Origin: a virus
Virus record (IMG/VR): IMGVR_UViG_3300045988_118932
Reading direction: 5' to 3' (one strand)
DNA: 49,338 nt
Shown: one piece after another, positions 1,551 to 49,338 of the stretch
How the letters are laid out: every line of letters starts with the position of its first letter
Position numbering within the stretch: position 1 is the stretch's first letter
Notes under the pieces: model-generated
The model's input: only the letters and a program-made list of their open reading frames with translations
What the model was told of the DNA's origin: nothing
Database searches by the model: none
Position numbers and translations under genes: made by a program

Positions 1551-2993
1551 TCATTGTTGATTGGAGTCCGACGAACCGGCATTACCATTTGCTTGATTGA
1601 TTTCATTATTAAGAGTGTTTTGTTGTTTTTCCTCCAATATCTTTCGTATCTCATCCTCTGGTTTATCCGTTATACTAAGCATTTTCACGGCTGTTTCAAG
1701 AGATATAATGCCGTCGTTATACAATTTGCCTATTGCTGCCCACTTCTTATCTATATCTTCTTGAAATGGTTCGGAAAACTCAAAATCAATATCTAAAACC
1801 TCCAGTTTAGAGCGTAATTCTATATGAGTTACATTCTTCATGATGGTCAATATCAGATTCTTTTCGCGGTCTACCGCAATCTCATATATTTCCTTGCGAT
1901 TGTCCCTTTTCATATAAGATGGAGCCATTGCACGCTTTAAAGCCTCTCCCGTTAACGTGCCCAAGCCTTTCGTGTTCTCCGATGAAAAGTTAAAAGTAAA
2001 GGTGTCATTAAGGATAGATTCTTTCAGTATGTCTTTTTCAAATTTCTTGAGTTCGACGGAATCCGGTGGTGCTACATAGTCGAACATACTATCTGGTCCG
2101 TGCATCCTAATAACTTCCCCTACATTATCTGGATCACTAAGAGAAGCCAACACATCTGCCGAAACTTTAGCTTTTGGATCTGCAAAATAGTTGACAGTAT
2201 CGGCAGATTTTGAATCGACATACTCGTCCCTATTTATACGAGACTGTGCGCCCTCCCATTCTTTTTCCTGTTGATAATAGATGATATTTATTTTCCCAGT
2301 AGGATTAATTATAGGCAAAACTTCCCATCCGCGATCATTTTTCTTGCATCTATAAATAACCTTTGGAGTCTGAATATCGAAATGTTCTACCGTGTTTACT
2401 CCTTCTTTTAGATAATATCCATAACCGAAAGCTAGCATAGTCCCATATTGGTCGAAAAGAGGACGCAGGGTATACCCTAAAGATTTTGCCAGCAAAACAA
2501 CTTTCACCTCCGCTTTTCCGGTTTCCTCGTTGCGGTAGATATGGTACAATTTAGCACATTCCGTCTCGGCGCCTGCTAAACGTTTAGCTTGACGCATGGT
2601 TGTGTTGAAACGGGTATCCTTCAAAAACTGAGTATATGCGTCAAAAGCAACATCTTGCACGTCGGGATCATTTTTGCTCCATTTTATCGGTTGCCCCAAC
2701 AGATAAAACAATGCAACCTCATTTATGTAAGCCTGCCATCTACGAGGGAGTTTTTCCGTGATATATGGCTGTTTGTTCTTTCTGAGTTTATTTTTGCGAT
2801 TCATTACATCATGGAGAGCAGGATCGTATTCTTTTATCGCCTCCATAACTTCCAAATCTCGATTTTGAAACAACTCCATCGCCCGACTTATATCTTTTTC
2901 TGCGATCAAAGTCATTAAGTCTTTGTTGGTGCTTGTCCCATTTAAAGATCCGCCCCTAAACAAATCCACTATGTAATTCAATATCGATGCCAT
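1551..2993 (-). CDS. Portal protein (SPP1 Gp6-like)
   Basis: 480 aa directly downstream of terL. Size, position and an acidic/Gln-rich C-terminus are typical of siphophage portals. Confidence 0.8.
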   Translation of the reverse strand: MASILNYIVDLFRGGSLNGTSTNKDLMTLIAEKDISRAMELFQNRDLEVMEAIKEYDPALHDVMNRKNKLRKNKQPYITEKLPRRWQAYINEVALFYLLGQPIKWSKNDPDVQDVAFDAYTQFLKDTRFNTTMRQAKRLAGAETECAKLYHIYRNEETGKAEVKVVLLAKSLGYTLRPLFDQYGTMLAFGYGYYLKEGVNTVEHFDIQTPKVIYRCKKNDRGWEVLPIINPTGKINIIYYQQEKEWEGAQSRINRDEYVDSKSADTVNYFADPKAKVSADVLASLSDPDNVGEVIRMHGPDSMFDYVAPPDSVELKKFEKDILKESILNDTFTFNFSSENTKGLGTLTGEALKRAMAPSYMKRDNRKEIYEIAVDREKNLILTIMKNVTHIELRSKLEVLDIDFEFSEPFQEDIDKKWAAIGKLYNDGIISLETAVKMLSITDKPEDEIRKILEEKQQNTLNNEINQANGNAGSSDSNQQ

Positions 2994-6656: not shown

Positions 6657-6815
6657 AATCTTTTCTATTACTTGTTGCAAATATACCTCAAAAAGCGAAA
6701 CGTAAAATAAACCACTTACAAAATAACGTTAAATGTATGCATTTTTACTATCATTTACTTTGTAATGTAAAACAAACTACTTACATTTGCATCGTAATAA
6801 TAAAACAACAAGACA

Positions 6816-7468: not shown

Positions 7469-8400
7469 TTATGTAAAATTGAATATATAATCTAAAACCG
7501 ACTTATTAACCTTGTTAATAATCGAAAAGTCCTTCTTTATATACAAATCTGTAACTGAAAGATTCTTATCAACATGGTTCAAGGCTTCATCTATGGTTGA
7601 CTTATCAGTATTCAAATCATTTCTTGCTATCGTGGCCCAAGAATGGCGGGCTGCATAAAATTCAAGATCGGGAATACCAATCTTTTTTCCAACAGCTTTC
7701 AATCCTTTATTTAGAGCGGCATTAAATGTCGACTGATCGGCATACATTTGATAAAACCTAAAAACTCTTTTTCCTGTTTTATCCATGTACTTTTTAATTA
7801 TGGGCAATATGAGGGGATGTATCTTTATTCGAATCTTTGCGTTGTCACTTCTGCGATCCTTTGTTTTAGTCCGACAATATACAATTTCGCTATTCTCGCA
7901 TATTTCCGCATTGTACAAATCAACAGAGTTCATTCCAATAAGACAGAATGATAGTATAAAGCAGTCCTTTGCCAGATTATAACGATTTTCTTTATTATTT
8001 CCCCTACTTGTAGTGTCATAGGGCAATTTTATTATCTCCCGGACAAGATCAGCACTAATCGCTCTTTTTTCAGCAATATTCTGACGAGGAACCTTATATC
8101 TTGAAAAAAATCGATAGAGGCTATTTCCGGCTCACACAGATAATCTGCCAATTTATCTATAGTCATGGTATTAATTGCAATAGAAAGTTCATTTGCTTTT
8201 TTTCTGTATAGCCTTATCAAATCATCTATCTGATCTAATACTTTCTGGTTTTTGATTTTGCCTGATCGCGTCATATCATCTTTGGTGATATAAATGCCAG
8301 TCGGCAATCTCTTCAACTGTCTGTTATGAGTGACAAGTATCTTTACATTAAAAGTACCGTCCTTCCGCTGCTTTTGTACTTCATGCTTAAATGTGGCCAT
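7469..8400 (-). pseudogene. int: Tyrosine integrase (arm-binding N-terminus plus catalytic domain), split and decayed
   Basis: ORFs 8032..8400 and 7469..8026 join in frame if one base is added to the A7 run at 8104-8110. RHSWAT, LNH and DLY motifs are present. Most of the core-binding domain seems to be missing, and the box I Arg position reads GMNSVDL. Confidence 0.7.
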
Positions 8401-8432: not shown

Positions 8433-8539
8433 ATTTTCAAGCAAAAGTAGCGATTTCAAGCAAAAGTAAGCAAAATAAAAGCCGTAAATCCATAAAAGAA
8501 ATACGGCTTAAACTTCTAAAATACTGATTTTTAGGCTTG

Positions 8540-8586
8540 TGACCAGGGTGGGATTCAAACCCACGACCTTCAGAACCGGAATCTAC
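8540..8586 (-). other. attP core: 3' part of a tRNA (anticodon arm to discriminator), probably tRNA-Arg(CCG)
   Basis: The minus strand reads GTAGA-TTCCGGT-TCTGA-AGGTC-GTGGG-TTTGAAT-CCCAC-CCTGGTC-A. No matching 5' acceptor or D arm lies upstream (AT-rich). Confidence 0.65.
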
Positions 8587-8645
8587 CATTTAAAACAACA
8601 TAATAATTTATAATACAACATATTACAAATTATAAAGAAACACAT

Positions 8646-17212: not shown

Positions 17213-17458
17213 CTTGAGGATGAAGACAGGATAAGTAAAACAGACGTTAAAACAATCATAGGTCTGCTCAGTCGGTCGCAAGTACTAATAGACGCCAACT
17301 GCTCTAAGCCGGTCGATCTGGATGTAGCCCACAGATGCAGGAAGATGGCCCGTAAATTAGAAAGGAGCTTGAAATGAATGATTACGAATACATTCCGGAT
17401 TGGAAAGTCTGGGAATAGTCGAATAGTATGTTTTGCATGGTATTAGTTTAGGTTAGTT

Positions 17459-17492
17459 TCCCCTTGCCGTCCGTGAGGATATGCAGAGGGGA
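17459..17492 (+). promoter_or_regulatory. Conserved hairpin B (same 15-nt core as hairpin A)
   Basis: TCCCCTTGC-CGTCCGTGAGGATAT-GCAGAGGGGA, followed by GTTTTGG and then tRNA-like element 3. Confidence 0.6.
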
Positions 17493-17497
17493 GTTTT

Positions 17498-17560
17498 GGG
17501 ACGAAAGGGAGTGATTGCGTAAGCCATAGTGTCAGGTCGGTTCGATTCCGCCCCGTCCCA
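17498..17560 (+). ncRNA. tRNA-like element 3 (acceptor plus T-arm, 63 nt, no D or anticodon arms)
   Basis: The 5' GGGACG pairs with the 3' CGTCCC. The T-arm is GTCGG-TTCGATT-CCGCC with one mismatch. It is followed by ACAAAAG like elements 1 and 2. Confidence 0.5.
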
Positions 17561-17618
17561 CAAAAGATGTTGAATTAAAAATTATTATAGAAATGTTTGG
17601 TATTTGTGATTTGAATAG

Positions 17619-17822
17619 TATCTTTGTGGTGTTCACGCCAAGAACAAGACATATTAGCTTGAGTAAATGGGTATATTTTTATGCTCATTTGAAAGCGTAT
17701 ATCACAAAGATATAAGGCTGTCACTCCCATTGGATACCCACTGCTCATGCTGTGTGTACTGTTCTTGGCGGAACGGGAGGCGACAGCCTTTCTTCATTCT
17801 ATACTCAAATACTTGTCCTAAA
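17619..17822 (+). promoter_or_regulatory. Promoter box TATCTTTG plus a ~190-nt structured leader
   Basis: The -7 box lies at 17619-17626. CGCCAAGAACA (17636) and GCCAAGAACA (17825, over the ATG) are both complementary to TGTTCTTGGCG (17760). A long helix pairs 17714-17728 with 17775-17790. Confidence 0.55.
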
Positions 17823-18059
17823 ATGCCAAGAACAGGAAGTATTAGAGCGAACGTGAATAATAGTAATGTTCAATCTACGCCCAACAGTGCGAAAACTGTA
17901 TCTTATCAAAAGTTTGAAATAGAAAAGAACGCCAAAAACAAGGCTTACTACTTCATCTTATCCAACGGACTTTTTGAAGCATTTGCAGAGTTCTGCAAAA
18001 ACTATCATTCAAGCAGCCCTCACAAGGATTGTTTTGATTGTCTATTGTCAAATTTTTAA
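17823..18059 (+). CDS. Hypothetical protein (78 aa)
   Basis: An internal ATG of track ORF 17667..18059 (MPRTGSIRANV...). The upstream part of the track ORF overlaps the structured leader. Confidence 0.45.
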   Translation: MPRTGSIRANVNNSNVQSTPNSAKTVSYQKFEIEKNAKNKAYYFILSNGLFEAFAEFCKNYHSSSPHKDCFDCLLSNF

Positions 18060-18071
18060 TCATATTTTCTT

Positions 18072-18617
18072 ATGGAAGAAATCTGGAAAGATATATCCGG
18101 ATATGAAGGACTATATCAAGTTTCTAATATGGGCAGAGTTAGGTCCAAGAAAAGGATATTTGAAAATAAGGGAACCGGAAAATATAAAAGAAATACCAGA
18201 ATTTTATTATGTAGCAAACATAATAAAGGATATCTAACAGTGACACTATTTAAGAATGGGAGATATAAACGTTTTCTTATTCATAGATTAGTAGCTAAGG
18301 CATTCCTGCCTCATGATATTTTCAGAAATCAGGTAAATCATATTGATGGAAATAAGACAAATAACAATATATCAAATATAGAATGGTGCAGCTCTTCTGA
18401 AAACCAGACACACAGAAGAGATATTTTAAAAAAGAAATTTGCGACTGGTAAACCTGTTATTCAGACTGATAATAAAGGGGATATTATAAGACAATTTGAA
18501 TCAATATTACAGGCTGCTAAATTAACAGGAATAAAACACCAGAACATATCTAGAGTATGCAATGGAAAATACAGACAAGCAGGAGGTTTTAGGTGGAAAT
18601 TTTTAAAAAACATATAA
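18072..18617 (+). CDS. HNH homing endonuclease (NUMOD4 plus HNH_3 plus C-terminal NUMOD1-like HTH)
   Basis: EEIWKDISGYEGLYQVSNMGRVRS (NUMOD4), VNHIDGNKTNNNISNIEW (HNH) and GIKHQNISRVCNGK (IENR/NUMOD). Confidence 0.85.
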   Translation: MEEIWKDISGYEGLYQVSNMGRVRSKKRIFENKGTGKYKRNTRILLCSKHNKGYLTVTLFKNGRYKRFLIHRLVAKAFLPHDIFRNQVNHIDGNKTNNNISNIEWCSSSENQTHRRDILKKKFATGKPVIQTDNKGDIIRQFESILQAAKLTGIKHQNISRVCNGKYRQAGGFRWKFLKNI

Positions 18618-23139: not shown

Positions 23140-23710
23140 GGACGACTTATTTAAGGTGTTTTTAATAAATGACCTGATGGATTTGCCTAATGCCGTTACT
23201 AAAATTTTAGATATGGATTTAGAAGATAGGAATAAAATATACCGAGAGTTGATTAGACTGAACGATAACGATTTGTCTTATGACTGGTTTCAAGAAGTTT
23301 ACGAAAGTGATTTATCTGAAAGAAAGCAAAAAAAACAGGACTTCACACCAAATTCTCTGGGAGTATTATGTTCATTACTAACATCTCAAACCGGAAGTAT
23401 ACATGAACCTACTGCCGGAAATGGATCTATGATCATTGCGGATTGGTGGCAACGTTGTACGAAATTATTACCCTGGGAACATTTCCCATCTCAGAATATT
23501 GTATCATGTTGGGAATTATCTGATAGATCAATTCCTATACTTCTTTTAAACTTATCGATTAGAGGAATTATGGGGTATGTTTATCACGGGGATGTATTAA
23601 CAAAAGAAGTTAAGCAGAAGTATATCCTTCTTAATCGCAAAGATGATACACTTTCCTTTTCGGAAATAATAAAAGCAGATACTAATGCCAAAATAGTACA
23701 AGAATTATGA
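23132..23710 (+). CDS. Truncated N6-adenine methyltransferase-like protein (SAM-binding half only)
   Basis: FQEVYESDLSERKQKKQDFTPNSL (motif X-like), HEPTAGNGSMII (motif I-like) and LLNLSIRG...GDVL are present. No NPPY/F catalytic motif appears before the stop. Confidence 0.5.
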   Translation: MNKDDLFKVFLINDLMDLPNAVTKILDMDLEDRNKIYRELIRLNDNDLSYDWFQEVYESDLSERKQKKQDFTPNSLGVLCSLLTSQTGSIHEPTAGNGSMIIADWWQRCTKLLPWEHFPSQNIVSCWELSDRSIPILLLNLSIRGIMGYVYHGDVLTKEVKQKYILLNRKDDTLSFSEIIKADTNAKIVQEL

Positions 23711-24660
23711 AATTAAATGATGTATATAATAAATGGTTGTCTGTCAAGAGAAGACAAGTTAAGGAATCAACACTAAGCTGTTATCAGCTCATATATATAA
23801 AGATACTGGCTCCTAGATTTGGATCTACAGATGTGGAGACCATGAATAAGAAGGTTGTTACAACATTTCTTTATGAACTTCTTGATTCAGGCACTAAGTC
23901 AAAGAAATACTGCTCAGATATCCTTATAGTCATAAAGATGCTTATTCGCTACGCTGGTGACGAATTGGACATCAATGTTCCCGATACAGCTTGGAAGGTT
24001 ATTTGGCCAACCAATAATAAGGTTGGCGTTTCAAAATTAGAACGTTACACGCAAGAAGAATATCGTAAAATTGTTGAGTATGTTATGGATAATCCATCAC
24101 CTCGCAATTTAGGCATTTTATTAACAATATGCACAGGCATGAGGATTGGCGAAATTTGTGCGTTACAGTGGCGGGATATAGATATTGTTGGCAATACAAT
24201 TCATGTCAATAAAACAATGGAGCGCATATATCTTCCTGGAAATATCGGTACCGACAGGAAAAAGACGGTGGTTGAGATAGGAGCTCCTAAAACTAGTTCA
24301 TCAGATAGGCACATACCTATTCTTAAAAATATTTTACCCATTGTGAAAAAGTTCTATGCCGTATGTAAGCCAGATTATTATGTTTGCACCTGCTCTGAGG
24401 ATTTTATCGAACCTCGAACTTTACGTACATATTATCGAATTTTTATTCTTGAAAAAGTAAAGTTAAATCATTGCATTAAATTTCATGGATTGCGACATAC
24501 TTTTGCAAGTACCTTGATTGAAAATAAAGTCGATGTTAAAACTGTATCCACAATTCTAGGACATTCGGATATAAGTACAACCCTCAATGTATACGTACAC
24601 CCATCAAATGAAGCCAAAATATGCGCTGTTAATGGAGGCTTAAAAGGAATATTCAGATAG
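23707..24660 (+). CDS. Tyrosine recombinase (XerC/D- or Rci-like), apparently intact
   Basis: TGMRIGEICALQWRDI (box I Arg), HGLRHTFAS, LGHSDISTTLNVYVH (catalytic Tyr). Confidence 0.85.
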   Translation: MKLNDVYNKWLSVKRRQVKESTLSCYQLIYIKILAPRFGSTDVETMNKKVVTTFLYELLDSGTKSKKYCSDILIVIKMLIRYAGDELDINVPDTAWKVIWPTNNKVGVSKLERYTQEEYRKIVEYVMDNPSPRNLGILLTICTGMRIGEICALQWRDIDIVGNTIHVNKTMERIYLPGNIGTDRKKTVVEIGAPKTSSSDRHIPILKNILPIVKKFYAVCKPDYYVCTCSEDFIEPRTLRTYYRIFILEKVKLNHCIKFHGLRHTFASTLIENKVDVKTVSTILGHSDISTTLNVYVHPSNEAKICAVNGGLKGIFR

Positions 24661-31172: not shown

Positions 31173-33041
31173 TCAATCCTTCTCTTTAACGGTTATTGAA
31201 TACATGACACCACTCGTATCGATCTTCAAAATGGACATCTCGAAAGGCACGCCGTAAGTAGTGGTAATAGAACTACCGGACATTGATCTAAAACTGCCAG
31301 TAGTGGGGATAGGCTGCGTAAAATAAGCGGTAGGATTACAATCAAGATATATCTCTTCGCCTACATTCAGTGCCCTTGCAGACTCATTTATCGACAGGTT
31401 TGAAGCGAAGGATAGGGTAGCCTTAATTAACCTCTTGTTTGTTGGTATATTCGCAAGAGTTGTGACAGCATTACTCCCTGTGCTGAAGTTTACTATATCA
31501 TCCACCTTCTTCTTGTCCTCAGCCGACATATACCCCGCTATGGCGGAGGTGGCGGTAGGGGGAGTGAGGTATTGACCGTTGTCGGAGAGGTATTTTGTAC
31601 CATCACCGTTATTAACAAGATTCATGGAATTCCAGGCACAGACATATGTTTTATCGTCTGTATAAACGGAAATCCTCTTTACATTTACTACTAAATTTGC
31701 ATTTAACTCAAAGCTATTAAGTCCAGACATATTGATAGTCAACCCATATGACTCTTCATCCTTTGTCATACTAAAAGGGAAATACACAGTGTTAACACGT
31801 GCTAAAGACACTCTATTTTCATAAGCATCAACTACCTTTTGATAATTTTCATCTGATAATGTACCACTTTCATTTGGGAATAAAGTTGTCAAGTCAAGAC
31901 ACTGATTGCTCGCCACTATCTCCGACCACGCCCCATTGTTACGCCCGTAGGTTTTTCCGTCCTTTGGAGCATCTACCGTAATAGCCGCATCTTCTCCTGC
32001 TGGGCCTTGCGGACCTTCTGGACCTCGATCTCCTTTATCGCCTTTCGGGCCCTGTTCTCCCGTAGGACCTTGAGGGCCAGGATCGCCTTGAATACCCTGC
32101 AAACCTTGAGGACCTATATCACCTCTTTCACCTTGAGGTCCTTGAGGACCGGTATCACCTTTGTCACCTTTTGGACCCTGAGCACCTTGAAGCGGACCAT
32201 TGTTTTTCCACACAGAATTGATTGCATCATAAATATAAATGTCGTACGGAGCACCTGTACCAACTCCATAAGCATCACCAGCTTGTGGGGAAACTATTGT
32301 AGACCCTAATTCTTCCTGCGTGCTAAAATATCCAAGTACCTTAAAACCACTTCCCGTATCTCCTTTATCGCCTTTTACTCCCTGCTCGCCTTTAGGCCCA
32401 ACAGGGCCTTGTGGACCAGTTTCGCCAATAGGTCCCTGCGGGCCTGTTTCTCCTTGAATCCCTTGTTCTCCTCTAAGACCTTGCGGACCAATATCACCCT
32501 TTTCACCCTTCAATTCTGCCTTATCTTCTTCCGTCAAATCAGAAAAATGCAATTTCAACTCGTCTTTCTGTTCCGGCGTTAGATCGGAAAACTTCAACTT
32601 CAAATCATCGTAAGGGACAAGTACACGATAAGCTGTATCTTCTTCACTGGTGTACTTCCATTCAATGCCTGTGCTACCGGTACGGAAAACAGGAGTATCA
32701 CCGGCAGTACCTTTCAGATCGGACAAAGCGACAAGATTCTGCCAATTACCGTCCGTATAACGCCATTGGATATAGGTTTTATCCTGATTTACCTGCAAGA
32801 ATACTTCACGTCCATCTACACCCTTCAAGACAGACAGAGCAACACGTACAAGCTTATATGTGCTACCCAACACCTGAAAGGCGGGAAGAGAGGATACACC
32901 GGTAAGTGAACTTACCTCTTCGTACTGCCCCGGATCTTTCGCCGTAGACGCAATCAAATCCTCCACCGCTGCCGCAATCTTCTGCAAGTCTTCCGGCGTG
33001 ATCGTTGTCCCGTCTGATAATATGATATCTCCTGCTGCCAT
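31173..33041 (-). CDS. Collagen-like repeat tail fibre
   Basis: Two Gly-X-Y tracts ([26 protein letters not shown]... and [23 protein letters not shown]...) within 622 aa. Confidence 0.8.
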
Positions 33042-48476: not shown

Positions 48477-49338
48477 TTACTTTGCTTTTAGGGTTTGGAG
48501 GTAGTTGTAGGCTTTGATACAGTCGTCTTTGGAAAGGATTCTTGGATAAATTGCAAGGTTCTTAAAAGCTATTCGATCAAACCTACCACCACTACTCGAT
48601 ACCTCCAATGTACCACCAGAACCAACTACATTACCTGTATTTGCCAGTATTTCATTCCAATTACGATCATAGGCCCTACCATCTGAACATGCAGCATTAA
48701 TACTTTTAATTCCGTCAAGACTATTTTTTACTGATCCTGAATTAATATAAAGATCAAGTCCAATCATTGTGTTGTAGATATAAAAACTAGACCCTTTTAC
48801 TAAACCAGTACCACTCTTTTTATTATCAATAAACTTCCAATCCCCAACAATCGTAAAATCCTTACCCATTCCAAAAACTGACGAAACTATCTTATCATCC
48901 ACCCCATCAGTAACCAGATATCCTTCGTATTCGGGGATTTGCTCAATGGTGACAACATGATCAGGATCAAAATCTTCTGCAAATTCTACAAGCAATTGTC
49001 TAATTTGAGATGCGGGTTTATTTAACATGTGTATCCCATCTGTTGTTATATCTATGTATCCTGTTGTACCAATCCACCCCCATTTAAATTTTACACCATC
49101 CTTTAATCCTGTTACTTTGACTTTTATATCATAGCTTAAATCATTTTGTTTTGGTGCAATTATTAAATTGTGATCCCCTAATGCAAACTTTGAAAAAGAC
49201 AAACTATATTTAGACGAATGCTGAACTGATAGATATAATTCAAATGGAGTTTTATACAACCCATACCCACTCCCTTCTGCAAACCCAAAATTCGACAGCA
49301 CAAGATTATTACCATTGCCTGTAATATTGGCAATAGTA
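48477..49338 (-). CDS. Double LamG-like protein, C-terminal part (second lectin domain), continuous with 1..1200
   Basis: The frame stays open upstream of the track start (GTG 49301) to the window end. Domain 2 motifs are NFGFAEGSGYG, IPEYEGYLVTDGVDDKIV and ILSKDDCIKAYNYL. Confidence 0.7.
   Translation of the reverse strand, partial: TIANITGNGNNLVLSNFGFAEGSGYGLYKTPFELYLSVQHSSKYSLSFSKFALGDHNLIIAPKQNDLSYDIKVKVTGLKDGVKFKWGWIGTTGYIDITTDGIHMLNKPASQIRQLLVEFAEDFDPDHVVTIEQIPEYEGYLVTDGVDDKIVSSVFGMGKDFTIVGDWKFIDNKKSGTGLVKGSSFYIYNTMIGLDLYINSGSVKNSLDGIKSINAACSDGRAYDRNWNEILANTGNVVGSGGTLEVSSSGGRFDRIAFKNLAIYPRILSKDDCIKAYNYLQTLKAK
49254..49338. repeat. Terminal overlap identical to 1..85
   Basis: See feature 1..85. 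Confidence 0.9.

What the first reader, a model, noticed from the sequence alone, without database searches (positions are those of the whole stretch)
17459..17560. Conserved hairpin B is fused to a minimal 63-nt acceptor/T-arm mimic (tRNA-like element 3)
Five nucleotides after hairpin B, GGGACG...CGTCCC forms an acceptor stem. It stacks on GTCGG-TTCGATT-CCGCC, with only ~30 nt (including a GC-GTAA-GC mini hairpin) where the D and anticodon arms should be. This resembles the tRNA-like domain of tmRNA or bacterial Y RNAs more than a tRNA. The physical coupling of the two recurring motifs suggests they act together in one RNA.
Basis: seen in the sequence. Interest (0 to 1): 0.7.

Follow-up and report, generated by a model that had tools for sequence, protein, structure and literature searches.

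The report
Phage sRNA hairpin plus tRNA-like stub
The hairpin is the tail of a phage-carried copy of a known Bacteroides regulatory small RNA (FopS family), and the stripped-down tRNA look-alike right behind it most likely serves as a cutting signal that frees that small RNA from a longer transcript.

Summary
The features described are real: hairpin B (17459-17492), a GUUUU spacer, and a 63-nt acceptor/T-arm element, E3 (17498-17560). The 31 nt upstream (17428-17458) match the 5' seed of the Bacteroides FopS/GibS sRNA family (Rfam RF04319). Hairpin B sits where FopS has its terminator. A bona fide phage FopS (77 bits) carries the hairpin-B core GUCCGUGAGGAU in its terminator.

So hairpin B is the 3' hairpin of a sub-threshold, phage-borne FopS-like sRNA. 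E3 is a tRNA-derived "top half" placed directly behind it.

- **Coupling:** every E3-type relative found keeps the pair (36/36 metagenome loci). These form one narrow clade.
- **Independence:** more widely, the same sRNA plus hairpin B is followed by about 10 unrelated tRNA-like cassettes, and once by none. Hairpin B also occurs without a tRNA-like element (11498-11532), and tRNA-like elements occur without hairpin B.
- **U-run:** FopS-type hairpins followed by a tRNA or tRNA-like element have lost the terminator U-run (21/22). Stand-alone ones keep it (23/26).

Best model: an operon-embedded sRNA whose 3' end is made by RNase P cleavage at the tRNA-like element, as in MALAT1-mascRNA. It is not a tmRNA or Y-RNA mimic. 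No expression data exist, so processing and function are inferred.

The parts
17428..17458 (+). 5' single-stranded, seed-like region of a FopS-like sRNA (AUGUUUUGCAUGGUAUUAGUUUAGGUUAGUU). It contains CAU, the complement of a start codon.
   Evidence: It aligns to positions 1-31 of Rfam RF04319 BTncRNA_FopS at 17.7 bits, E=1.7, below the gathering score of 56. It aligns with phage FopS copies scoring 77, 56 and 54 bits. The seed function of this region in B. thetaiotaomicron is described in PMC11697453.
17459..17492 (+). Hairpin B: a 9-bp lower stem with one bulge, a 1x2 internal loop, and an apical GUCC-GUGA-GGAU. It occupies the terminator position of the FopS-like sRNA.
   Evidence: Fold z-score -3.4. 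The lower stem covaries in relatives while the 15-nt top is invariant. The core GUCCGUGAGGAU is the terminator of a bona fide FopS, L244, at 77 bits.
17493..17497 (+). GUUUU spacer. It is a residual, weak terminator U-run and the predicted RNase P leader, with U at position -1.
   Evidence: Sequence. Hairpins followed by a tRNA or tRNA-like element have at most 4 T in the next 8 nt in 21 of 22 variants. Stand-alone ones have at least 5 T in 23 of 26.
17498..17560 (+). tRNA-like element E3 (63 nt). Acceptor 17498-17503/17554-17559; linker 17504-17534; T arm 17535-17553 with T loop UUCGAUU 17541-17547; discriminator A17560. No CCA is encoded.
   Evidence: Sequence. No ARAGORN or Rfam tRNA/tmRNA call. 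The T stem and acceptor are kept, with compensatory changes, in relatives.
17504..17534 (+). 31-nt central linker (AAAGGGAGUGAUUGCGUAAGCCAUAGUGUCA). It has conserved AAAGGRAGU and GCCAU blocks. No conserved helix was found. The GG may be a D-loop G18G19 remnant (inference).
Evidence: Alignments.
11464..11497 (+). U-rich 5' region of a second, diverged paralogue (UUGUAUUUUGCAAUUAAAUUUUUGGUUUUGGUUU) that lacks the CAUGG box.
   Evidence: Partial alignment to the FopS 5' region. No Rfam hit.
11498..11532 (+). Hairpin B copy 1. It has the same 15-nt top and a different lower stem (CCUCUCU/AGCGAGG). It is followed by UGUCUUUUGG and small ORFs, with no tRNA-like element.
   Evidence: repeat family D14; z = -2.7. 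Class II relatives appear.
17596..17626 (+). Full-consensus Bacteroides promoter (TTTG-N19-TAtcTTTG), 36 nt after E3. It marks the start of a window-specific insert: a 130-aa ORF plus an HNH endonuclease.
   Evidence: The mosaic breakpoint lies right after E3. The HNH endonuclease was identified.

Best explanation
Positions 17428-17560 hold two adjacent RNA genes inside the early, rightward operon of a temperate Bacteroides-type phage.

1. The first is a roughly 70-nt FopS-like small RNA. It has an unpaired 5' seed (17428-17458) and hairpin B (17459-17492) as its 3' stem-loop. By homology with FopS of B. thetaiotaomicron, the seed, which carries an anti-start-codon CAU, would pair with translation-initiation regions of host mRNAs. 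In the host these targets are SusC-type transporter mRNAs.
2. The second is E3 (17498-17560), a tRNA-derived "top half" that keeps only the acceptor stem, T arm and discriminator. These are the features tRNA-end-processing enzymes need.

The sRNA sits inside an operon, so a strong terminator would cut off downstream genes. Its U-run has decayed to UUUU, and transcription reads through into E3. RNase P cutting 5' of G17498 would then make the sRNA's 3' end. RNase Z cutting after A17560 would free the downstream A-rich mRNA leader.

The two modules are therefore coupled through co-transcription and processing, not by acting as one composite tRNA mimic.

Shown: the anatomy, the homology chain to FopS, covariation, the conserved adjacency, and the U-run dichotomy. 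Inferred: transcription, read-through, RNase P/Z cleavage, and host targets.
For: - **FopS homology.** The FopS model aligns to 17428-17458. The same motif plus hairpin scores 77, 56.4 and 54.1 bits in phage loci L244, L243 and L248, and 34-37 bits in hairpin-B loci L004, L082 and L049. The alignment shows one shared architecture.
- **Hairpin B core.** L244's terminator, GGCU-GUCCGUGAGGAU-AGCC followed by U7, contains the hairpin-B core.
- **Published description.** FopS is a single-stranded seed plus a Rho-independent terminator, 65-70 nt long. It represses susC translation, and a phage copy has been noted (PMC11697453). Positions 17428-17497 span 70 nt.
- **tRNA adjacency recurs.** L243 has FopS followed after 4 nt by a real tRNA (57.5 bits). 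L248 has a tRNA (68 bits) followed after 3 nt by FopS. In L286 and L310 the seed and hairpin are followed by tRNAs; L310 carries four (46.5-65.4 bits). Hairpin-B modules are followed by about 10 different tRNA-like types.
- **U-run dichotomy.** With a T loop downstream, 21 of 22 variants have at most 4 T in the next 8 nt. Without one, 23 of 26 have at least 5 T. Fisher p = 3.6e-9; the sequences are not independent.
- **What the tRNA-likes keep.** They retain the acceptor plus T stack, a UUCGAnU T loop and mostly an A discriminator, while the middle is free to vary. The extreme case is a 41-nt version in L328.
- **No canonical promoter.** No sigma-ABfr -7 box lies at -12 to -5 of 17428 (read). 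This fits an operon-embedded, processed sRNA.
- **No phage target.** The phage genome holds no target for the seed, which fits a host target.
Against: - There are no transcript data of any kind.
- The window copy fails the Rfam FopS gathering score (17.7 against 56 bits). It has 3-4 mismatches in the first 21 seed positions, so its targets may differ or it may be decaying.
- E3 in this window has a U x C mismatch in the T stem, and its MFE does not form the T arm.
- L049 has hairpin B with neither a U-run nor a tRNA-like element. L243 has both a strong U-run and a tRNA. The rule is therefore not absolute.
- The invariant 15-nt top of hairpin B, shared by three different 5' regions, is not explained by a terminator or processing role.
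- The conserved AAAGGRAGU and GCCAU blocks in the E3 linker exceed what a pure processing signal needs.
- The high turnover of tRNA-like types at one slot could equally mean arms-race cargo.
Confidence: 0.45

Rival explanations
1. E3 and its sister tRNA-like elements are functional cargo in their own right. They would be stable anticodon-less tRNA top-halves that act as decoys or competitors for a tRNA-binding factor, such as an acceptor-end-targeting defence toxin, RNase P, CCA-adding enzyme or an aminoacyl-tRNA synthetase. The FopS-like unit would simply provide expression.
For: - About 10 unrelated tRNA-like types occupy the same slot behind a nearly identical seed plus hairpin B. That turnover is typical of arms-race loci.
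- Three anticodon-less tRNA-like elements sit in one genome: E1, E2 and E3.
- Type a keeps G3.U70 plus A73, the AlaRS identity set, in two diverged variants (read).
- Conserved blocks exist in the E3 linker.
Against: - No candidate partner protein was found in the window.
- Nothing anticodon-related is left to decoy the well-known anticodon nucleases.
- The window copy carries a T-stem mismatch.
- This reading does not explain the U-run dichotomy.
Confidence: 0.17
2. E3 is a decaying tRNA pseudogene. It would be a relic of a tRNA gene that once followed the sRNA, with no present function, retained only by linkage.
For: - There is a U x C mismatch in the T stem and a fast-changing central region in the window copy: 5-6 changes in about 20 nt against its closest relatives, while the seed and hairpin B are identical.
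- Real tRNAs occupy the equivalent slot in other phages.
- E2 also has two acceptor mismatches.
Against: - Compensatory changes keep the T stem.
- The acceptor and T loop are intact in all 13 metagenome variants.
- About 10 independent types have all lost the anticodon region but none has lost the acceptor/T stack.
- L328 shows a clean 41-nt minimal form rather than random decay.
Confidence: 0.18
3. Hairpin B is primarily a protein- or polymerase-binding leader element. It could be a nut/put-like processive-antitermination site or a binding module for an RNA chaperone, marking the starts of two transcription units. The tRNA-like element would be incidental.
For: - There are two copies per genome, 5-6 kb apart on the same strand, in the window and at least 8 relatives.
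- The apical 15 nt, with a GNRA loop, are invariant while the stem covaries. A GUGA->GGGA variant keeps the GNRA form (L049).
- The top is shared by three different 5' regions.
- Terminator-like hairpins lie downstream, at 11575-11592 and 14566-14580.
- In Bacteroidales genomes it often sits 15-35 nt before a start codon.
Against: - No antiterminator-like or RNA-binding protein was recognised.
- The core sequence is simply the terminator of a canonical FopS (L244), so shared ancestry explains much of the conservation.
- There is no boxA-like companion motif.
Confidence: 0.12
4. One reading: hairpin B and E3 form one composite RNA of about 100-120 nt that works like the tRNA-like domain of tmRNA or a bacterial Y RNA (YrlA).
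For: Strict adjacency in all E3-type loci. Both ends of E3 pair, as in the tRNA-like domain of tmRNA.
Against: - ARAGORN finds no tmRNA, and Rfam finds no tmRNA or Y-RNA match at E<=10.
- The third acceptor pair is G3-C70. There is no tag reading frame or pseudoknots, and no Ro-binding stem.
- The modules segregate independently at wider range.
- Hairpin B belongs to the upstream sRNA.
Confidence: 0.03
5. The element is DNA-level: an attP or recombination site made of tRNA gene sequence.
For: Temperate phages integrate into tRNA genes. A mosaic breakpoint lies exactly at the 3' end of E3.
Against: - A far better attP candidate lies at 8530-8590(-): only the 3' part of a tRNA, next to the integrase genes and their promoter.
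- E3 carries both acceptor strands, and they covary as RNA.
Confidence: 0.03

Closest known systems
FopS / GibS sRNA family of Bacteroides (Rfam RF04319, RF04182; Rüttiger et al., Nat Commun 2025, PMC11697453)
   Same: - The conserved unpaired 5' region is GUGUUUUUCAUGGUAUUAGAU..., followed by a single 3' hairpin.
- Length is about 70 nt.
- The taxon is Bacteroidaceae, and a phage copy has already been noted in the paper.
- The hairpin-B core equals the terminator of a 77-bit phage FopS.
   Different: - The window copy scores only 17.7 bits and has 3-4 seed mismatches.
- The hairpin is enlarged by an extra covarying lower stem and an internal loop.
- The U-run is reduced to 4.
- No sigma-ABfr promoter is present.
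- A tRNA-like element is fused 5 nt downstream. That fusion is not described for FopS.
MALAT1-mascRNA / MEN-beta tRNA-like 3'-end processing (own knowledge; Rfam RF01684)
   Same: A tRNA-like element lies directly 3' of a functional non-coding RNA. RNase P cleavage at its 5' side creates the mature 3' end of the upstream RNA, and RNase Z and CCA addition release a small tRNA-like by-product. This is the working analogy.
   Different: That system is eukaryotic and nuclear. mascRNA keeps a cloverleaf with a shortened anticodon arm. There is no sequence relation, and no Rfam hit in the window. Cleavage here is untested.
MHV68 TMERs (tRNA-miRNA-encoded RNAs) (own knowledge)
   Same: A virus-encoded, non-decoding tRNA-like element is fused to regulatory hairpin RNAs. 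tRNA-processing enzymes separate the parts.
   Different: The order is reversed, with the tRNA-like element 5' of the hairpins. The tRNA-like element there also supplies the pol III promoter. It is a eukaryotic virus.
tRNA minihelix / top-half model substrates of RNase P, RNase Z and CCA-adding enzyme; phage ncRNAs matured by RNase P such as P1/P7 C4 RNA, P4 CI RNA and T4 species 1 and 2 RNAs (own knowledge)
   Same: A 12-position coaxial acceptor/T stack with a 7-nt T loop and a discriminator is sufficient for these enzymes. Precedent exists for phage regulatory RNAs whose ends are made by RNase P.
   Different: Those are laboratory substrates or unrelated phage RNAs of E. coli. None is paired with a FopS-type sRNA.
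tmRNA tRNA-like domain and bacterial Y RNA (YrlA)
   Same: A T arm and an acceptor-like helix without an anticodon arm.
   Different: - tmRNA has G3.U70, pseudoknots and a tag reading frame of about 300 nt between the halves.
- YrlA closes its acceptor-like stem with a loop and uses its 5'/3' ends for a Ro-binding helix.
- Neither model matches.

Membership tests
FopS sRNA family (Rfam RF04319) | Conserved single-stranded 5' seed R1' (GUGUUUUUCAUGGUAUUAGAU...) | tested here: met
   Positions 17428-17458 align to model positions 1-31, with about 24 of 31 identical. The mismatches are at seed positions 1, 8 and 20, plus a 2-nt deletion (alignment).
FopS sRNA family (Rfam RF04319) | Rho-independent terminator hairpin with a U-run directly after the seed; total length about 65-70 nt | tested here: inconclusive
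   The hairpin is at the right position and 17428-17497 spans 70 nt. The hairpin has an extra lower stem and only UUUU follows it. The simple terminator scan does not call it.
FopS sRNA family (Rfam RF04319) | Score at or above the curated gathering threshold (56 bits) | tested here: not met
   17.7 bits, E=1.7. Hairpin-B relatives score 34-37 bits. Canonical phage copies score 54-77 bits.
FopS sRNA family (Rfam RF04319) | Own canonical sigma-ABfr promoter (TAnnTTTG near -7), as reported for the B. thetaiotaomicron paralogues | tested here: not met
   Positions 17416-17423 read TAGTCGAA. The full-consensus scan finds promoters only at 6759, 8474(-), 9771 and 17596. One host paralogue, FopS-14, is 3'-UTR-derived, so this feature is not strictly required.
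FopS sRNA family (Rfam RF04319) | Binds RbpB and represses susC-type mRNAs at the start codon | not testable with these tools
   No host genome or binding assay was available. The only result is that the phage genome itself has no target site.
tRNA (Rfam RF00005) | Cloverleaf with D arm and a 7-nt anticodon loop; detection by tRNA finders | tested here: not met
   ARAGORN finds none, even at relaxed settings. Rfam gives no tRNA hit at E<=10. Only 31 nt lie between the acceptor and the T arm.
tRNA (Rfam RF00005) | Acceptor stem stacked on a T arm with a UUCRAnU T loop and a discriminator | tested here: met
   There are 6 acceptor pairs plus 6 T-stem positions, one of which is a U x C mismatch. 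The T loop is UUCGAUU and the discriminator is A17560. Compensatory changes occur in relatives.
tmRNA | G3.U70 alanine identity pair, pseudoknots and a tag reading frame between the tRNA-like halves | tested here: not met
   The third pair is G17500-C17557. The linker is 31 nt. ARAGORN finds no tmRNA. Rfam finds no tmRNA at E<=10 in this stretch.
Bacterial Y RNA (YrlA) | Ro-binding helix formed by the 5'/3' ends, an internal tRNA-like module, and a match to the Rfam models | tested here: not met
   No Rfam match. Here the 5'/3' ends form the acceptor stem itself.
Bacterial Y RNA (YrlA) | Genomic association with an rsr (Ro60) gene | not tested
   No Ro-like family appeared among the roughly 40 ORFs scanned. 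Not every ORF was scanned.
RNase P / RNase Z-processed tRNA-like 3'-end element (mascRNA-type) | Located directly 3' of a functional ncRNA and structurally sufficient for RNase P (about 12-bp acceptor/T stack plus T loop) | tested here: met
   It lies 5 nt after hairpin B, with U at position -1. The stack is 6+6. Weak U-runs occur in 21 of 22 coupled modules.
RNase P / RNase Z-processed tRNA-like 3'-end element (mascRNA-type) | Actual cleavage by RNase P and RNase Z | not testable with these tools
   This needs RNA-seq, RACE or in-vitro cleavage assays.

The most novel reading that the evidence does not exclude
Gut Bacteroides phages carry FopS-type regulatory sRNAs embedded in their early operons. 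They have replaced the sRNA's intrinsic terminator with a minimal tRNA-like RNase P substrate. This would be a prokaryotic counterpart of MALAT1-mascRNA 3'-end formation, with tRNAs decaying to 41-63-nt top halves once only the processing role is selected. The sRNA would let the phage or prophage shut down host SusC-type outer-membrane transporters, which could be receptors or a route to metabolic reprogramming. The invariant top of hairpin B would be a binding module for an unidentified RNA-binding protein.
Probability: 0.25. Interest if true: 0.75.

Novelty: new variant of a known kind. Interest (0 to 1): 0.55.

Why it matters
FopS sRNAs control polysaccharide-utilisation transporters, which are central to Bacteroides fitness in the gut. 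One sentence in the 2025 paper noted a phage copy. The data here show that FopS-like units are common in gut phage contigs: the seed scan hit its 120-locus limit. One large group carries a distinctive, conserved 3' hairpin fused to interchangeable anticodon-less tRNA-like stubs.

If the processing model holds, three things follow:
- It would be the first bacterial or phage example I know of where a tRNA-like element replaces a terminator to make an sRNA 3' end.
- It would explain why phages keep "broken" tRNAs.
- It would point to phage manipulation of host glycan uptake or receptor expression by a hijacked host sRNA family.

It also gives annotators a rule: tRNA-like stubs missed by ARAGORN and Rfam next to sRNA hairpins are probably processing elements, not noise.

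Tried and rejected
- **Upstream motif as a promoter.** I first read GTTTTnCATGGTATTAG as a promoter, or a Q-type promoter-plus-terminator unit. It lacks a -33/-7 arrangement. The Rfam FopS/GibS hits then showed it is the sRNA seed.
- **Hairpin B as a recognised motif or terminator.** I considered a K-turn, a sarcin-ricin-like motif, an MS2-operator-like motif, an RNase III site and a CRISPR-repeat mimic. By inspection none fits. The terminator scan does not call hairpin B.
- **Anticodon arm in the E3 linker.** A candidate arm (GUGGU-CACAUAA-GCCAU in L052) is broken by G->A changes in the other variants and is absent in type f.
- **Antisense targets in the phage genome.** For hairpin B plus E3, the longest complementary match to + strand transcripts elsewhere in the genome is 10 nt, no more than shuffled sequences give. 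The seed has no target other than itself.
- **attP.** A better candidate lies at 8530-8590 beside the integrase.
- **Known phage relatives.** megablast finds only short patches. Bacteroides phage BF1-TP2 carries the same module, annotated as a hypothetical protein.
- **Protein clues.** PHROGs and Pfam scans of about 40 ORFs gave no antiterminator, RNA-binding protein, Ro, RNA ligase or tRNA enzyme.
- **First U-run measurement.** An MFE-based measurement was too noisy. I replaced it with an explicit stem finder.
- **Second hairpin-B copy.** Rfam gives no hit on it.
- **Literature.** Searches found no description of FopS-tRNA-like fusions or of anticodon-less tRNA-like elements in Bacteroides phages.
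Full report
**1. What is in the sequence.**

The window is a circularly assembled phage genome of about 49.25 kb; positions 1-85 repeat at 49254-49338. It has a repressor gene (9199-9708, minus strand). A rightward early block (about 9.8-27 kb) encodes RecT- and RecE-like proteins, a RusA-like resolvase and replication proteins. Structural genes lie on the minus strand. Full-consensus Bacteroides promoters (TTTG-N17-23-TAnnTTTG) sit where expected, for example at 9771 just after the repressor gene. The best database neighbours are human-gut and Bacteroides phages.

- Hairpin B spans 17459-17492.
- A 5-nt spacer, GUUUU, follows.
- The acceptor helix is GGGACG/CGUCCC (17498-17503 with 17554-17559).
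- The T arm is 17535-17553 with loop UUCGAUU.
- The discriminator is A17560.
- Only 31 nt occupy the place of the D and anticodon arms.

Two corrections apply. The T stem has a U x C mismatch in this copy. The GC-GUAA-GC mini-hairpin is not conserved in relatives.

Neither ARAGORN nor Rfam calls E3 as tRNA, tmRNA or Y RNA, even at E<=10. Thermodynamically, hairpin B stands out (z = -3.4) but E3 alone does not (z = -1.2).

**2. Hairpin B is a real, conserved RNA structure.**

Of 52 distinct flank sets, 34 pair at 5 or more of the 6 positions next to the loop, against about 3% expected by chance. The remaining sets look like random or coding-region hits. Across 17 distinct stems, all six lower-stem pairs show changes on both sides, while the inner UCC-GUGA-GGA helix never varies. 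The stems were pre-selected for pairing, so only the covariation counts as evidence. Loop variants keep a GNRA tetraloop, for example GUGA->GGGA in L049.

Hairpin B occurs in two contexts.
- **Class I:** preceded by a conserved motif, GTGTTTTTCATGGTATTAGATTT..., and followed within 4-7 nt by a tRNA-like element.
- **Class II:** other 5' sequences, followed after about 15-35 nt by a start codon, with no tRNA-like element.

The window and at least eight related contigs carry one copy of each class, 5-6 kb apart on the same strand. The class II copy lies upstream; in the window it is at 11498-11532.

**3. The upstream motif is the seed of a known sRNA family.**

I first took the motif for a promoter. 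Rfam showed otherwise.
- In L243 the motif plus its hairpin scores 56.4 bits against RF04319 (BTncRNA_FopS, gathering score 56), with weaker hits to GibS.
- Other phage loci score 77 bits (L244), 54.1 bits (L248) and about 47 bits (L263, L231).
- Hairpin-B loci score 34-37 bits (L004, L082, L049).
- The window scores 17.7 bits over model positions 1-31, which correspond to 17428-17458.

The model is a 40-nt unpaired 5' region, a terminator hairpin and a U-run. R\u00fcttiger et al. (PMC11697453) describe FopS as a 14-member family of 65-70-nt sRNAs in B. thetaiotaomicron. Their 5' seed pairs with the start-codon region of susC-type PUL mRNAs and represses translation, and the RNA-binding protein RbpB antagonises this. 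They note in passing one Caudovirales phage copy.

The alignment puts the canonical phage FopS copies, the hairpin-B versions and both window copies in one register. Decisively, the terminator of the 77-bit FopS in L244 is GGCU-GUCCGUGAGGAU-AGCC followed by U7. That is the core of the hairpin-B top. Hairpin B is therefore a FopS-type 3' hairpin that has gained an internal loop and an extra, freely covarying lower stem. Positions 17428-17497 span 70 nt, the FopS size.

Caveats on the window copy:
- It is sub-threshold.
- It differs at seed positions 1, 8 and 20.
- It lacks a recognisable sigma-ABfr -7 box at the expected place (17416-17423 reads TAGTCGAA).

It is best called FopS-like and probably operon-embedded. 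One host paralogue, FopS-14, is 3'-UTR-derived in a comparable way.

The copy at 11464-11532 shares the hairpin and only part of the 5' region (no CAUGG). It has no Rfam hit.

**4. What E3 is.**

Two searches that did not use hairpin B recovered only a narrow human-gut clade of E3-type elements. One used the T arm plus 3' acceptor strand in viral contigs. The other used the linker plus T loop in metagenomes. Together they gave about 9 and 13 sequence variants. All sit behind the seed and hairpin B (36 of 36 metagenome loci).

Within that clade:
- The T stem changes by compensation: A-U<->G-C at one pair and C-G<->A-U at another.
- The acceptor tolerates A-U<->G.U.
- The linker keeps AAAGGRAGU and GCCAU blocks but no consistent helix. 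One row of that alignment is shifted by a base at the acceptor.

Beyond the clade, a nearly identical seed plus hairpin B is followed by about 10 unrelated tRNA-like types.
- Some keep a normal D arm.
- One (type c) is an almost complete tRNA with an 8-nt anticodon loop.
- One series keeps a tRNA-Leu-like D arm around different 60-100-nt inserts.
- L328 has a 41-nt form, GGGCAG-AAUGGUUCCCCA-CCCGG UUCGAUU CCGGG-CUGCCC-A.
- In L049 nothing tRNA-like follows.

Canonical FopS copies in other phages abut real tRNAs, in either order.
- L243: FopS, 4 nt, then a tRNA (57.5 bits).
- L248: a tRNA (68 bits), 3 nt, then FopS.
- L286 and L310: seed and hairpin followed by tRNAs; L310 carries four.

What every version retains is the acceptor/T coaxial stack, the T loop and usually an A discriminator followed by C and an A-rich stretch. 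That is the substrate domain for RNase P, RNase Z and CCA-adding enzyme (established knowledge on minihelix substrates). The same window holds two more anticodon-less tRNA-like elements without hairpin B: E1 at 10373-10442 and E2 at 14671-14737.

**5. How the two parts are probably connected.**

I measured the U-run after every distinct seed-linked hairpin with an explicit stem finder.
- With no T loop downstream, 23 of 26 variants have at least 5 T in the next 8 nt, as proper terminators do. Two of the three exceptions are random coding hits, and the third is L049.
- With a tRNA or tRNA-like element downstream, 21 of 22 have at most 4 T. L243 is the exception.
- Fisher p = 3.6e-9. The sequences are related, so this is an indication, not a probability.

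Modules with a tRNA or tRNA-like element have therefore lost termination capacity and must be read through. An sRNA placed inside an operon cannot afford a strong terminator, because downstream genes would be cut off. A tRNA-like element 5 nt after the hairpin offers RNase P cleavage to make almost the same 3' end (...GGGGAGUUUU). RNase Z would release the downstream A-rich leader. A tRNA used only in this way is free to lose its anticodon and D arms, which would explain the series from full tRNAs down to 41-63-nt stubs. This is the MALAT1-mascRNA logic. Phage precedents for RNase P-matured regulatory RNAs are P1/P7 C4 RNA and P4 CI RNA (own knowledge). All processing steps are inferred, and no transcript data were available.

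**6. What remains unexplained.**

- The invariant 15-nt top of hairpin B is shared by three different 5' regions. A terminator or processing role does not require that. A protein-binding module is the obvious guess, but no candidate protein emerged.
- The loop segment CCGUCC equals the 3' acceptor strand of E3 and of type a, so it can pair with their 5' strands. This may be chance among G/C-rich segments.
- The turnover of tRNA-like types could instead reflect selection on the stubs themselves, as decoys.
- The window's E3 has a weakened T stem and may be decaying.
- A mosaic breakpoint lies exactly at the 3' end of E3. There the window has acquired its own consensus promoter (17596-17626), a 130-aa ORF and an HNH endonuclease.

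**7. Verdict.**

It is wrong in its family comparison (tmRNA, Y RNA) and in treating hairpin B as a partner motif. Hairpin B is the 3' hairpin of a FopS-like sRNA whose seed starts 31 nt upstream of the reported coordinates.

This is a new variant of known kinds, combining a FopS-type sRNA with a tRNA-like processing element. It is of moderate interest, and simple RNA experiments would settle it.

Noticed in passing
window 10373-10442 (+): E1 is a 70-nt tRNA-like element starting 2 nt after the stop codon of ORF 10039-10371. It has a 6-bp acceptor and a perfect T arm. The D and anticodon arms are replaced by two hairpins that carry the same GAAAGCGUUC top. Fold z-score is -3.6. There is no ARAGORN or Rfam hit. 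It is followed by ACAAAAA, like E2 and E3.
   Followed up: partly
window 14671-14737 (+): E2 scores 35.3 bits against Rfam tRNA, but it has a 4-nt loop in place of the anticodon loop and two acceptor mismatches. It lies 24 nt before the RecT-like gene. A similar element follows hairpin B and a small acidic ORF in a Parabacteroides faecalis prophage (L348).
   Followed up: partly
window 8530-8590 (-), 7469-8400 (-): The 3' part of a tRNA (T arm GTGGG-TTTGAAT-CCCAC, end CCTGGTCA) lies beside a tyrosine integrase that is split into two frames (8032-8400 and 7469-8026). A consensus Bacteroides promoter sits at 8474-8442. This is the likely attP. A second, intact integrase gene is at 23707-24660 (+).
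   Followed up: partly
window 17560-18617: A mosaic breakpoint lies exactly at the 3' end of E3. Relatives continue with a conserved ORF (MMHNWFECKV...). The window instead has its own consensus promoter (17596-17626), a 130-aa ORF with no family match, and an HNH endonuclease (18072-18617).
   Followed up: partly
L324 4757-4842 (MAG labelled Thaumarchaeota): An 86-nt tRNA-Ile(GAU) carries CCCGC-CGTCCGTGAGGATAT-GCGGG. These 25 nt are identical to the class I hairpin B. In the tRNA they form the anticodon-stem 3' strand, a 15-nt variable region and the T-stem 5' strand. The match is far beyond chance (about 1e-3 expected) and is unexplained.
   Followed up: partly
L321 (Gammaproteobacteria MAG), between tRNA-His and tRNA-Lys: The same 15-nt hairpin-B top, with a 7-bp stem (GTGAGCC/GGCTCAC), sits in the spacer of a Pro-Arg-His-Lys-Leu tRNA operon. 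Its significance is borderline (about 0.16 expected).
   Followed up: no
L328 ~1880-1925 (-): Hairpin B is followed after 4 nt by a 41-nt minimal tRNA-like element: a 6-bp acceptor, a 12-nt AAUGGUUCCCCA linker and a 5-bp T arm. It is the smallest version seen.
   Followed up: no
L016, L082 (type c): An otherwise canonical 74-nt tRNA sits behind hairpin B. It has an 8-nt anticodon loop, CCAAAAGA, which ARAGORN reads as the 4-base anticodon aaaa. The anticodon stem covaries between the two variants.
   Followed up: no
window 11952-12185 (+): Three tandem 78-nt repeats encode leucine-rich-repeat-variant (LRV) units inside ORF 11922-12401.
   Followed up: yes
window ~31990-32490 (-): Collagen-like Gly-X-Y repeat DNA lies inside the 622-aa ORF 31173-33041, probably a tail fibre.
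   Followed up: no
window 17375-17419 (+) and relatives: A tiny conserved acidic ORF (MNDYEYIPDWKVWE; compare MDFGNYIPDYDPEVFDNYDYE in BF1-TP2 and MDFGYDMPDDDPDYF... in P. faecalis) travels with the hairpin-B module. It lies sometimes upstream and sometimes downstream of it.
   Followed up: no
PQ571263 (Bacteroides phage BF1-TP2) 3758-3945: The FopS-like seed, hairpin B and a 115-nt tRNA-Leu-like element are annotated there as a hypothetical protein (gp8). This is probably a mis-annotation.
   Followed up: partly
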